A DNA stretch of 18,198 nt, from positions 1 through 18,198 of IMG/VR virus record IMGVR_UViG_2534681697_000016; one strand, given 5' to 3'. The first letter of the stretch is position 1; every line of letters starts with the position of its first letter. This document shows, in pieces, positions 1,822-3,205 of the stretch. This DNA comes from a virus. Its lineage: Duplodnaviria > Heunggongvirae > Uroviricota > Caudoviricetes. The notes under the pieces are model-generated. The model worked only from the letters and a program-made list of their open reading frames with translations. It ran no database searches and had not been told where the DNA came from. The position numbers and the translations under genes are program-made.

Positions 1822-1837
1822 TTATGTTATAACATAA
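1822..1837. promoter_or_regulatory. Zur box (zinc uptake regulator operator) in the rpmE2/ykgM promoter
   Basis: Perfect 16-bp palindrome TTATGTTATAACATAA containing the Zur-box core TGTTATAACA, 10-13 bp upstream of the ykgM start codons. ykgM-ykgO is a known Zur-repressed operon in E. coli. Confidence 0.55.
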
Positions 1838-1849
1838 CAGGTAAAAATG

Positions 1850-1948
1850 ATGAAGCCCAATATCCATCCTGAGTATCGTACTGTGGTGTTCCACGACACC
1901 AGTGTTGATGAGTACTTTAAAATCGGCTCGACTATCAAAATGAGGTAG
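1850..1948 (+). pseudogene. rpmE2: rpmE2/ykgM (ribosomal protein L31 type B, zinc-independent paralog), 5' fragment truncated by IS600
   Basis: [30 protein letters not shown] is the recognisable N-terminus of YkgM/L31B. The native sequence ends at 1940; the frame then reads M-R-stop (TAG 1946-1948) inside the IS600 left inverted repeat. A second in-frame ATG lies at 1847. Confidence 0.8.
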
Positions 1949-2005
1949 CCTGAGTTTAACGGACACTCCTTCCTGAAATAGAATGGCATCAGAAAGGAGC
2001 TAATA

Positions 2006-2308
2006 ATGAGCAGAAAAACCCAACGTTACTCTAAAGAGTTCAAAGCCGAAGCTGTCAGAACGGTTCTTGAAAATCAACTTTCGATCAGTGAAGGCGCTTC
2101 CCGATTATCCCTTCCTGAAGGCACTTTAGGACAATGGGTTACCGCCGCCAGAAAAGGGCTCGGTACTCCTGGTTCCCGCACGGTGGCTGAACTGGAATCT
2201 GAAATTCTGCAACTGCGTAAGGCGTTAAATGAAGCTCGCCTTGAGCGAGATATATTAAAAAAAGCAACAGCGTATTTTGCACAGGAGTCGCTGAAAAATA
2301 CGCGTTAA
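2006..2308 (+). CDS. IS600 OrfA (IS3-family transposase N-terminal HTH protein)
   Basis: ORF track 2006-2308: MSRKTQRYSKEFKAEAVRTVLENQLSISEGASRLSLPEGTLGQWVTAARKG...ILKKATAYFAQESLKNTR. The A AAA AAA slippery run sits at the ILKKA codons, as expected for programmed -1 frameshifting into orfB. Confidence 0.9.
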   Translation: MSRKTQRYSKEFKAEAVRTVLENQLSISEGASRLSLPEGTLGQWVTAARKGLGTPGSRTVAELESEILQLRKALNEARLERDILKKATAYFAQESLKNTR

Positions 2309-2343
2309 TCGAACAATGGCGACAACAATTTCCCATTGAAGCG

Positions 2344-3162
2344 ATGTGTCAGGTATTTGGTGTATCCAGGAGCGGTTATTACAACTGGGTACAGCATGAA
2401 CCCTCAGACAGAAAACAAAGTGATGAGCGGCTAAAACTGGAGATTAAGGTGGCACATATCCGCACTCGCGAAACATATGGAACCCGGCGGCTCCAGACGG
2501 AGCTGGCAGAGAATGGCATCATCGTTGGTCGTGACCGACTGGCACGTCTTCGTAAGGAGCTAAGGCTACGCTGTAAGCAGAAACGCAAGTTCAGAGCGAC
2601 TACGAACCCGAACCACAATCTGCCAGTTGCGCCAAATCTGCTGAACCAGACGTTCGCTCCTACAGCACCAAATCAGGTCTGGGTGGCGGACCTGACGTAT
2701 GTTGCCACACAGGAGGGATGGTTGTACCTCGCTGGCATCAAAGATGTTTATACGTGCGAAATTGTCGGCTACGCCATGGGAGAGCGCATGACAAAAGAGC
2801 TGACAGGTAAAGCCCTGTTTATGGCGCTCAGGAGCCAGCGCCCACCTGCCGGGCTAATCCACCACTCTGATCGAGGTTCACAGTACTGCGCATACGATTA
2901 CCGGGTCATACAGGAGCAGTTTGGTCTGAAAACATCAATGTCGCGTAAAGGTAACTGTTACGACAACGCTCCGATGGAAAGCTTCTGGGGAACGCTGAAA
3001 AATGAGAGCCTGAGCCACTATCGTTTTAATAACCGGGATGAAGCCATCTCAGTAATACGGGAATACATTGAGATTTTCTACAATCGTCAGCGTCGTCACT
3101 CTCGTCTGGGGAATATCTCCCCGGCAGCCTTCAGGGAAAAATATCATCAGATGGCTGCTTAA
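2344..3162 (+). CDS. IS600 OrfB (DDE integrase-type catalytic domain; expressed as an OrfAB fusion by -1 frameshift)
   Basis: ORF track 2344-3162, 272 aa, in the -1 frame relative to orfA. The sequence has the rve-type features of IS3-family transposases (WVADLTYV..., HHSDRGSQY..., CYDNAPMESFWGTLK...). Confidence 0.85.
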   Translation: MCQVFGVSRSGYYNWVQHEPSDRKQSDERLKLEIKVAHIRTRETYGTRRLQTELAENGIIVGRDRLARLRKELRLRCKQKRKFRATTNPNHNLPVAPNLLNQTFAPTAPNQVWVADLTYVATQEGWLYLAGIKDVYTCEIVGYAMGERMTKELTGKALFMALRSQRPPAGLIHHSDRGSQYCAYDYRVIQEQFGLKTSMSRKGNCYDNAPMESFWGTLKNESLSHYRFNNRDEAISVIREYIEIFYNRQRRHSRLGNISPAAFREKYHQMAA

Positions 3163-3205
3163 AAAAAGAACAAATGGTAGTGTCCGCTATTGCCAGTACA
3201 CCTCA

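What the first reader, a model, noticed from the sequence alone, without database searches (positions are those of the whole stretch)
1822..3205. Zur-regulated L31 paralog ykgM truncated by IS600; zinc-responsive promoter now points into the IS
The Zur box and the first 30 codons of rpmE2/ykgM are intact, but the gene is cut at 1940/1941 by an IS600-like element in the same orientation, and the downstream partner ykgO is absent from the window. That removes the zinc-independent L31 (and probably L36) back-up used under zinc starvation. It also places IS600 orfA 66 bp downstream of a promoter that is derepressed in low zinc, so transposase read-through expression may be zinc-responsive. The 3-bp flanks of IS600 (AAA left, GGC right) do not match, so this copy likely mediated a deletion or inversion joining the ykgM locus to phage DNA rather than being a simple insertion.
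Basis: partly seen in the sequence, partly recalled or inferred. Interest (0 to 1): 0.5.

Follow-up and report, generated by a model that had tools for sequence, protein, structure and literature searches.

The report
IS600-disrupted ykgM pseudogene in Shigella boydii
A common Shigella jumping gene (IS600) has cut the zinc-starvation back-up ribosomal protein gene ykgM after codon 30; this is ordinary Shigella gene decay, and its adjacency to phage DNA is an IS-to-IS recombination or a draft-assembly join.

Summary
The window is the whole contig AERN01000072.1 of the Shigella boydii ATCC 9905 draft. The ykgM promoter, Zur-box core (1825-1839) and 30 codons (1850-1939) are intact. A complete IS600 (1941-3205) follows in the same orientation, then the last 87 bp of a prophage terS and terL. 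ykgO is not in the window.

The same ykgM'::IS600 left junction occurs in three closed chromosomes and one independent read set, each time with a different, non-ykgM right flank, so the truncation is real and old. In the closest closed genome (CP026875) the two junctions belong to two separate IS600 copies, inverted and about 509 kb apart. The terS copy there is a simple insertion with a GGC duplication. The window therefore reflects an IS600 x IS600 inversion, or a chimeric join in the draft. The contig's second internal IS join is also non-collinear with CP026875.

Zinc-responsive transcription into IS600 is plausible. However, an IRL segment pairs with the orfA Shine-Dalgarno sequence only in read-through RNA, which argues against zinc-driven transposase synthesis. 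Whether ykgO survives elsewhere could not be determined.

This is ordinary IS-mediated gene decay, of low interest.

The parts
1..358 (-). Left end of an IS911 copy (start of orfA), at the contig edge; it cuts the NADH-flavin oxidoreductase gene
   Evidence: 99.7% identical to RefSeq-annotated IS911. The E. coli match to the flank starts at 359.
359..912 (+). 3' part of the NADH-dependent flavin oxidoreductase gene, frameshifted (ORFs 333-677 and 535-912)
   Evidence: Pfam Oxidored_FMN hits to both ORFs; synteny with E. coli.
1386..1487 (+). ykgR (33-aa small membrane protein), the normal upstream neighbour of ykgM
   Evidence: ORF; the called gene carries PF28062 YkgR in relatives; E. coli annotation.
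1788..1816 (+). Sigma-70 promoter-like hexamers TTGAAA-17-TATCTT upstream of ykgM
   Evidence: Consensus scan; invariant across 5 aligned sequences.
1825..1839 (.). Zur-box core palindrome TGTTATAACATAACA
   Evidence: Identical to the E. coli ykgM upstream region. In E. coli, Zur repression of this promoter (L31p) is about 560-fold (PMC4219657).
1850..1948 (+). Truncated ykgM' ORF: 30 native codons (1850-1939), then Met-Arg-stop read from the IS600 end
   Evidence: The same 33-aa product (counted from ATG 1847) is called in 3 closed chromosomes and 1 Logan contig.
1941..3205 (+). Complete IS600 (IS3 family), 1265 bp
1941..1967 (+). IS600 left inverted repeat (IRL)
1956..1984 (+). IS-internal promoter-like site TTAACG-17-TAGAAT; a start about 1990-1993 is inferred
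   Evidence: consensus match only.
1966..1999 (+). Predicted RNA hairpin pairing 1966-1976 with 1989-1999, which contains the orfA SD AAGGAG (1994-1999)
   Evidence: Present in the MFE and centroid structures of three constructs. Local fold is -10.9 kcal/mol, z=-1.8, with 8 of 200 shuffles as good. It is absent from RNA starting at 1991.
2006..2308 (+). IS600 orfA (100 aa, HTH_Tnp_1)
2257..2264 (+). A7G slippery run for the -1 frameshift that makes OrfAB
   Evidence: Read from the sequence. The -1 frame continues into orfB. RefSeq annotates IS600 copies with a programmed frameshift.
2344..3162 (+). IS600 orfB (rve integrase core; ORF from the first ATG)
3179..3205 (+). IS600 right inverted repeat (IRR)
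3206..3292 (+). Last 87 bp (28 codons plus stop) of the prophage small terminase gene terS; the first 3 bp (GGC) are the target duplication of the terS::IS600 insertion seen intact in CP026875
3295..4914 (+). Prophage large terminase (TerL), the first intact gene of the 12.2-kb prophage remnant (3206 to about 15376)
   Evidence: A source names it 'Phage terminase, large subunit [Shigella boydii ATCC 9905]'.

Best explanation
What it is.
In an ancestor of a Shigella boydii/dysenteriae-type lineage, IS600 inserted into the AAAA run at codons 30/31 of ykgM. ykgM encodes the zinc-independent type B L31 and is the first gene of the Zur-repressed ykgM-ykgO operon. The insertion left a 30-codon stub behind an intact promoter and operator, and cut everything downstream off from that promoter.

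How the right flank arose.
The ykgM-linked IS600 then served repeatedly as a substrate for homologous recombination with other IS600 copies, so its right-hand neighbour differs between strains. In the ATCC 9905 contig the partner is the IS600 that sits as a simple insertion (GGC duplication) in terS of a prophage. Relative to CP026875, where the two copies are inverted and about 509 kb apart, this is one inversion. It could also be an assembler's join through the repeat.

Consequences.
- No functional L31B can be made from this locus. This is shown by the sequence.
- Under zinc limitation the derepressed promoter probably transcribes into IS600. This is inferred.
- Read-through RNA contains an IRL segment that pairs with the orfA ribosome-binding site, so little extra transposase is expected. 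This is inferred from folding and is not tested.
For: Identity of the parts.

Source: the window is AERN01000072.1 of S. boydii ATCC 9905.

The truncation is real and shared. The same 33-aa stub and left junction occur in CP026824, CP026875, CP027027 and DRR015929. Right flanks differ: an integrase fragment in two, a 113-bp IS911 fragment in one. All have non-matching 3-bp flanks.

The right junction comes from a separate IS600 copy. In CP026875, terS5'-GGC-IS600-GGC-terS3'-terL is a simple insertion, compared with intact terS in an E. coli prophage. Draft contigs QWSH01000240 and ABBSSL010000228 start at or just right of that same junction.

Geometry. The ykgM copy lies on the + strand at about 4.770 Mb and the terS copy on the - strand at about 4.260 Mb of CP026875. 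Recombination between inverted repeats yields exactly ykgM'-IS600-terS3'-terL.

Regulation. The E. coli L31p promoter is repressed about 560-fold by Zur (PMC4219657). No terminator-like site lies on the + strand in 1650-2350.

Hairpin. An analogous pairing of an IRL segment with the orfA SD is predicted for the IS911 end in the same window (-21 kcal/mol, z=-1.9). Precedents are IS10/IS50 RBS sequestration and the IS200 stem-loops against impinging transcripts.
Against: The ykgM-phage adjacency is seen only in this draft contig. No complete E. coli genome has either junction.

The contig's second internal IS (15377-16298) also joins DNA that is not adjacent in CP026875: an Rhs gene here, continuing phage there. 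That raises the chance of chimeric repeat resolution.

The reciprocal junctions were not found: IS600 followed by the ykgM 3' part, and terS5'-IS600 followed by the IS911 fragment.

Hairpin statistics are modest (z about -1.8), and longer constructs fold no better than shuffles (z -0.08 and +0.21).

A lineage-specific G>T at 1821, next to the Zur core, has unknown effect.
Confidence: 0.8

Rival explanations
1. Assembly chimera. Both junctions are real, but they belong to two different IS600 copies in ATCC 9905, as in CP026875. The draft assembler or gap-filler joined them through the 1.26-kb multicopy repeat, so ykgM is not next to phage DNA in the cell.
For: The window is a draft contig. IS600 is present in up to about 40 places per genome in related strains. 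In the closest closed genome (99.9% identical flanks) the two junctions are about 509 kb apart. The second internal IS join of the same contig is also non-collinear with that genome. The lone extra A in a homopolymer at 1993 hints at error-prone reads. Short-read drafts of relatives break exactly at these IS edges.
Against: A contig that contains two whole IS copies implies that some linking information was used. The ykgM-linked IS600 has demonstrably recombined more than once in this clade, with at least two other right flanks among three closed genomes. IS-bounded inversions are common in Shigella (PMC8072062 abstract). The required event is a single inversion with the correct repeat orientation.
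Confidence: 0.38
2. One reading: the orphaned Zur-controlled promoter makes IS600 OrfA/OrfAB synthesis, and hence transposition, zinc-responsive.
For: Promoter and operator core are conserved and co-oriented with orfA, with no terminator-like site between them. The promoter is very strongly derepressed without Zur-Zn in E. coli. The stub ORF stops 58 nt before orfA's ATG.
Against: The SD-sequestering hairpin forms only in transcripts that start upstream of 1966. The untranslated gap after the premature stop invites Rho-dependent polarity; this is an inference from general knowledge. At least for IS1, transcriptional read-through from flanking DNA represses transposition activity (Machida et al. 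1983, known here only from its title in a reference list). There are no expression data.
Confidence: 0.15
3. IS600 transposition itself (an intramolecular or one-ended event causing adjacent deletion or inversion), rather than homologous recombination between two pre-existing copies, created the ykgM-IS600-terS joint.
For: IS3-family elements can generate adjacent deletions, and mismatched flanks are compatible with this. This is general knowledge.
Against: The right junction lies at exactly the same nucleotide, with the same GGC, as a bona fide simple insertion in CP026875. At least two further drafts share it. An independent transposition to the identical site is unlikely. The left junction is likewise shared with other right flanks.
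Confidence: 0.05

Closest known systems
IS600 (IS3 family, IS3 group) insertions and IS-mediated pseudogenes and rearrangements in Shigella
   Same: The element is 99.3-99.9% identical to annotated IS600. It has the orfA/orfB -1 frameshift layout, TG...CA inverted repeats, and 3-bp duplications at simple insertions. IS600 is one of five ISs expanded in all Shigella species and a major cause of gene inactivation (PMC7373316).
   Different: This copy has non-matching flanks and an extra A at 1993. ykgM is not mentioned in that survey: 0 occurrences of 'ykgM' or 'zinc'.
E. coli ykgM-ykgO (L31p/L36p) Zur-repressed operon
   Same: Synteny with ykgR, the promoter, the Zur-box core, and the first 30 codons (29/30 residues identical to GF3-3, 30/30 to CFSAN004176 at the DNA level) all match.
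   Different: 57 of 87 codons and all of ykgO are missing from the locus. There is a G>T change 4 nt 5' of the core operator.
Protection of IS transposase genes from outside transcription by RBS-sequestering RNA structure (IS10, IS50; IS200 stem-loops)
   Same: A sequence near the IS left end is complementary to the transposase SD, and the IS's own promoter-like site lies between the two arms. Precedents are quoted.
   Different: This has never been tested for IS600, as far as the searches showed. Folding significance is modest. This is a resemblance in how it works, not a demonstrated membership.
IS911 insertion in ykgM of Escherichia albertii (BJCT01000028.1)
   Same: Another IS3-family element abuts ykgM within 1-2 bp of the same AAAA run at codons 30/31.
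   Different: It is a different IS in a different species. There the ykgM 3' part and ykgO are still directly adjacent.

Membership tests
IS600 (IS3 family) | Near-identity of the whole element to reference IS600 copies | tested here: met
   99.3-99.9% identity over 1264-1265 bp to copies annotated 'IS3-like element IS600 family transposase'.
IS600 (IS3 family) | Imperfect terminal inverted repeats ending 5'-TG...CA-3' | tested here: met
   27-nt arms at 1941-1967 and 3179-3205, 70% complementary, TGAGG.../...CCTCA.
IS600 (IS3 family) | orfA (HTH) and orfB (DDE/rve) in 0/-1 frames, joined by an A-rich slippery site | tested here: met
   Pfam HTH_Tnp_1 hit for orfA; rve, rve_2, rve_3 and HTH_21 hits for orfB. 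The A7G run at 2257-2264 puts orfB in the -1 frame. RefSeq notes a 'programmed frameshift'. Frameshifting itself was not tested.
IS600 (IS3 family) | 3-bp target-site duplication flanking a simple insertion | tested here: not met
   This copy has AAA on the left and GGC on the right. Simple insertions in relatives do show GGC/GGC and CAC/CAC. So this copy is a recombinant or a mis-join, not evidence against IS600 identity.
Type B (zinc-independent) ribosomal protein L31, YkgM/L31p | L31 family sequence without the CxxC zinc motif, in the ykgR-ykgM-ykgO context | tested here: met
   PF01197 hit at E=7.7e-8. There is no Cys in residues 1-30. ykgR lies upstream. The DNA is colinear with annotated ykgM.
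Type B (zinc-independent) ribosomal protein L31, YkgM/L31p | Full-length coding sequence (87 aa) followed by ykgO | tested here: not met
   Only 30 native codons remain. There is no match to the ykgM 3' part or ykgO anywhere in the window.
Zur-regulated promoter | Zur operator overlapping the promoter | tested here: met
   The core TGTTATAACATAACA is identical to the E. coli ykgM upstream region. One flanking substitution is of unknown effect.
Zur-regulated promoter | Zinc- and Zur-dependent transcription in this strain | not testable with these tools
   This needs RT-qPCR or RNA-seq with and without a zinc chelator or a zur mutant. The E. coli figure of about 560-fold comes from PMC4219657.
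RBS-sequestering protection against outside transcription (IS10/IS50-type) | Structure forms only in transcripts initiated outside the IS and occludes the SD or start codon | tested here: inconclusive
   The hairpin 1966-1976/1989-1999 is predicted in every construct containing both arms and is absent from RNA starting at 1991. z is about -1.8 locally, with no significance for longer RNAs. The transcription start site was not determined.

The most novel reading that the evidence does not exclude
Zinc starvation, for example calprotectin-mediated starvation in the inflamed gut, derepresses the orphaned ykgM promoter strongly enough to overcome the IRL hairpin and raise IS600 OrfA/OrfAB. That would couple host nutritional immunity to IS600 activity and genome rearrangement in this Shigella lineage.

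A second, smaller possibility concerns the 32-33-aa L31p stub. It keeps K2, H6 and E8, which PMC9825181 shows are needed for repression of rpmE translation. The stub might still repress L31 synthesis under zinc limitation without replacing it.
Probability: 0.08. Interest if true: 0.5.

Novelty: already known. Interest (0 to 1): 0.14.

Why it matters
The case adds one concrete example to the catalogue of IS-driven gene decay in Shigella: loss of the zinc-independent L31 paralogue in a S. boydii/dysenteriae-type lineage. It shows how one IS600 copy acts as a recurrent recombination breakpoint.

It could matter physiologically if these strains meet severe zinc limitation in the host, because the L31p/L36p switch and L31p's repression of L31 would be gone. 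But this is one pseudogene among hundreds in such genomes.

Practically, it is a caution that IS-spanning joins in draft Shigella contigs should not be read as genome structure without long-read support.

Tried and rejected
(1) I searched for the reciprocal junction (IS600 right end, 2-5 nt, then CAGACCGTGAGAT of ykgM) in GTDB species-representative genomes and in JGI metagenomes. There were 0 hits. The left junction also gave 0 hits in the genome representatives. This was expected, because Shigella is probably not a separate species representative there.

(2) I searched the protein collection with a predicted IS600-end/ykgM-3' hybrid ORF. No such hybrid appeared among the cluster representatives. 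The search found only other disrupted alleles: a frameshift allele, the IS911 junction in E. albertii, and one other apparent junction allele not followed up.

(3) I searched with YkgO to locate it in the Shigella genomes. So the presence of ykgO elsewhere, and the reciprocal terS5'-IS600 junction in ATCC 9905, could not be examined.

(4) SNPs inside IS600 did not help to detect a crossover. The only ykgM-copy-specific difference in CP026875 (T at 2162) is private to that genome.

(5) I looked up the Rhs-side proteins to place the contig's second IS join in a closed genome. They occur only on this contig or on roughly 1-kb read contigs.

(6) Rfam and tRNA scans of the window found nothing.

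(7) A literature search for ykgM plus Shigella found no paper describing this allele. The Mahillon & Chandler review (PMC98933) is not held.

(8) I rejected transposition-mediated deletion, because both junctions pre-exist separately in relatives. I rejected a direct-repeat deletion relative to CP026875, because the two IS600 copies are inverted there.
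Full report
**Source of the window.**
An exact-protein look-up of the 539-aa terminase ORF returns a contig of the same length and coordinates: AERN01000072.1, 18,198 bp, assembly GCA_000193915.2. A published strain table lists that assembly as Shigella boydii ATCC 9905 (PMC6397287). One source names the protein 'Phage terminase, large subunit [Shigella boydii ATCC 9905]'. The window is therefore a complete contig of a draft genome. That matters for everything said below about adjacency.

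**The observation.**
- Window 359-1940 is colinear (98.5%) with the E. coli segment oxidoreductase - ykgR - ykgM.
- The annotated E. coli ykgM start corresponds to ATG 1850. Codons 1-30 (1850-1939) plus one base are retained. The ORF then reads Met-Arg-stop out of the IS end.
- The stub still scores as Ribosomal_L31 (E=7.7e-8, profile positions 1-27 of 65).
- Upstream, the promoter-like hexamers TTGAAA-17-TATCTT (1788-1816) and the palindromic Zur-box core TGTTATAACATAACA (1825-1839) are invariant in an alignment with two E. coli and two related Shigella-lineage sequences. Only 1819-1821 vary.
- No complete E. coli genome matches the 100 nt around the operator exactly (best 99%). The difference is a G>T at 1821, four bases 5' of the core, with unknown effect.
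- In E. coli this promoter (L31p) binds Zur most tightly of the four known operators and is repressed about 560-fold (PMC4219657).

**The insertion sequence.**
- Bases 1941-3205 are 99.3-99.9% identical to copies that RefSeq annotates as 'IS3-like element IS600 family transposase', with a programmed frameshift.
- The element has 27-nt terminal repeats.
- orfA (2006-2308) has an HTH_Tnp_1 hit. orfB (2344-3162) has rve, rve_2, rve_3 and HTH_21 hits. An A7G run at 2257-2264 places orfB in the -1 frame.
- It is co-oriented with ykgM.
- Its only difference from the terS-linked copy of a close relative is an extra A at 1993 in the AAA run before the orfA Shine-Dalgarno sequence. That is either a homopolymer error or a private indel.
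- Only one IS600 copy is in the window.
The -10-like hexamer is about 190 bp upstream.

**The right flank.**
- Bases 3206-3292 are the last 87 bp of a phage small-terminase gene, followed by terL, portal and head/tail genes. These are 99.4-99.6% identical to a prophage of several IS-rich E. coli genomes, where terS is intact.
- Nothing in the window matches the ykgM 3' part, ykgO or ykgL.
- The 3-bp flanks are AAA and GGC.
- This mismatch is meaningful. Two simple IS600 insertions examined here carry perfect 3-bp duplications: GGC in terS of CP026875 and CAC in a lysozyme gene of E. coli FDAARGOS_943.

**What relatives show.**
- The 33-aa stub product (counted from ATG 1847) is encoded on three closed chromosomes (CP026824, CP026875, CP027027) and on one contig assembled from an independent read set, DRR015929.
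- All carry the identical ykgM'::IS600 left junction. The truncation is therefore real, inherited and not strain-specific.
- In none of them is the IS followed by the rest of ykgM. Two have an integrase fragment, and in one of those the IS600 is itself split by another IS. CP026875 has a 113-bp IS911 end fragment.
- This IS600 copy has therefore changed partners at least twice, apart from the window.
- CP026875 is the closest relative: 99.94% identity over window 1-3206 and 99.87% over 1941-10918.
- It also contains the other half of the story. Its prophage has terS5'-GGC-IS600-GGC-terS3'-terL, a textbook simple insertion.
- Two further drafts have contigs that start at or just to the right of that same junction.
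- In CP026875 the ykgM-linked copy is on the + strand at about 4,770,253-4,771,516. The terS copy is on the - strand at about 4,259,516-4,260,779. They are inverted repeats about 509 kb apart, by arithmetic on the ranges.
- Recombination between inverted repeats inverts the intervening segment and produces exactly ykgM'-IS600-terS3'-terL.
It can be sharpened to homologous recombination between two pre-existing IS600 copies, giving an inversion rather than a deletion relative to this relative.

**Is the adjacency real?**
This cannot be settled with the tools available.

For a real inversion:
- The contig contains two complete internal IS copies, which implies that linking information was used.
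- This IS600 copy has recombined repeatedly in the clade.
- IS-bounded inversions are frequent in Shigella.

For an assembly chimera:
- IS600 is a 1.26-kb repeat with up to about 40 places per related genome.
- Short-read drafts break at exactly these edges.
- The contig's second internal IS (about 15377-16298) also joins DNA that is not adjacent in CP026875. In the window it is followed by an Rhs core gene; in CP026875 the phage simply continues.
- So two out of two IS-spanning joins are non-collinear with the closest closed genome.

I put the chimera at roughly 0.4. Attempts to find the reciprocal junctions failed or were blocked.

**Functional reading.**
- Shown by sequence: no L31B can be made from this locus, and any surviving ykgO has lost its promoter.
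- Not shown: that ykgO and the ykgM 3' half are gone from the genome.
- The ykgM 5' region is single-copy in E. coli (median one place per genome), so a second intact operon is unlikely but not excluded.
- From the literature, L31p not only substitutes for zinc-binding L31 but also represses rpmE translation through its N-terminus (PMC9825181). The lineage would lose both functions.
- The stub keeps residues K2, H6 and E8 that were needed for repression. This is a curiosity. It is unlikely to matter for a 32-aa peptide, but it is not excluded.

**Zinc-responsive transposase?**
Read-through transcription is plausible. The promoter and operator core are intact and co-oriented, and no terminator-like site lies on the + strand between 1650 and 2350.

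Translation is another matter.
- Every fold containing both arms pairs 1966-1971/1973-1976 (inside the IS left end) with 1989-1992/1994-1999. The second arm includes the orfA SD AAGGAG, six bases before the ATG.
- The local hairpin is -10.9 kcal/mol, z=-1.8, with 8 of 200 shuffles as good.
- The only promoter-like site inside the IS end (TTAACG-17-TAGAAT, 1956-1984) would start RNA at about 1990-1993, downstream of the 5' arm. RNA from 1991 is essentially unstructured.
- The IS911 end at the left edge of the window shows the same logic with different sequence: CACCUG in the IRL pairs with CAGGUG at the orfA SD (-21 kcal/mol, z=-1.9).
- This is the arrangement described for IS10 and IS50 and is akin to the IS200 stem-loops.
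- For IS1, read-through from flanking DNA represses transposition activity (Machida et al. 1983; title only).
- The significance of the folds is modest and nothing was measured.

My estimates: a zinc-responsive junction transcript is likely (about 0.7). A zinc-responsive rise in transposase or transposition is unlikely (about 0.15).

**Comparison with known systems, and novelty.**
- The element passes every IS600 membership test except the flanking duplication. That failure reflects its recombinant or mis-joined state, not its identity.
- The gene is a type B L31 by sequence and context, but it fails the full-length test.
- IS600 is one of five ISs expanded in all Shigella and a principal agent of pseudogene formation (PMC7373316). 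That survey does not mention ykgM or zinc. No paper holding both 'ykgM' and 'Shigella' describes this allele, judging from titles and abstracts.
- The instance is undocumented but the kind is thoroughly known. I rate it 'already known' in kind, with interest about 0.14.

**Side observation.**
A different IS3-family element, IS911, abuts ykgM within 1-2 bp of the same AAAA run in Escherichia albertii, with ykgO still attached. This hints at a local insertion hot spot.

Noticed in passing
L011 1-330 (E. albertii BJCT01000028.1); corresponds to window 1937-1940: An IS911-like end (...GTGCCACTTCA) abuts ykgM at AACAGACCGTGAG, 1-2 bp from the IS600 site in Shigella, with ykgO intact downstream. Two IS3-family elements have hit the same AAAA run in two species, which suggests a possible insertion hot spot.
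   Followed up: partly
window 1-912: The contig starts inside an IS911 copy (1-358, reverse orientation) that truncates the NADH-dependent flavin oxidoreductase gene. The remaining part is also frameshifted (ORFs 333-677 and 535-912).
   Followed up: partly
window 15377-16298 and 16299-18198: A 0.92-kb multicopy IS (perfect ends GGCTGTGTCCCTTAAT..., DDE_Tnp_1/DUF4096 type, TA flanks) separates phage tail-side genes from an Rhs core gene on the minus strand (16794-18140). In CP026875 the same IS is a simple insertion and the phage continues. So this join is also rearranged or mis-assembled, and the prophage remnant in the window is only about 12.2 kb.
   Followed up: partly
window 1993: This IS600 copy has an extra A in the run just 5' of the orfA Shine-Dalgarno sequence, compared with four other copies (1265 vs 1264 bp). 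It is a homopolymer sequencing error or a private indel. It turns a C bulge in the predicted hairpin into a 1x1 internal loop.
   Followed up: partly
L004 11359-11471 (CP026875) vs window 246-358: In CP026875 the ykgM-linked IS600 is followed directly by a 113-bp IS911 left-end fragment identical to the one at the window's left edge, then by a 103-aa hybrid ORF and an IS66-family element. This is evidence of nested IS insertions and recombination at this locus.
   Followed up: no
window 1819-1821: CTT here (and in CP026875 and CP026824), versus CTG or TGG in E. coli, lies immediately 5' of the Zur-box core. No complete E. coli genome shares the window's exact 100 nt around the operator. The effect on Zur binding is unknown.
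   Followed up: partly
window 1850-1939: The 30-codon L31p stub retains K2, H6 and E8, residues reported as necessary for L31p to repress rpmE (L31) translation (PMC9825181). Whether such a peptide is stable or active is unknown.
   Followed up: no
L005 10159-12538 (CP027027): In this closed genome the ykgM-linked IS600 is itself interrupted within orfA by another IS (a 383-aa HTH_38 + rve transposase).
   Followed up: no
window 270-358 (minus strand): The IS911 left end is predicted to fold so that CACCUG in the inverted repeat pairs with CAGGUG at the orfA ribosome-binding site (-21 kcal/mol, z=-1.9). This parallels the IS600 hairpin with a different sequence.
   Followed up: partly
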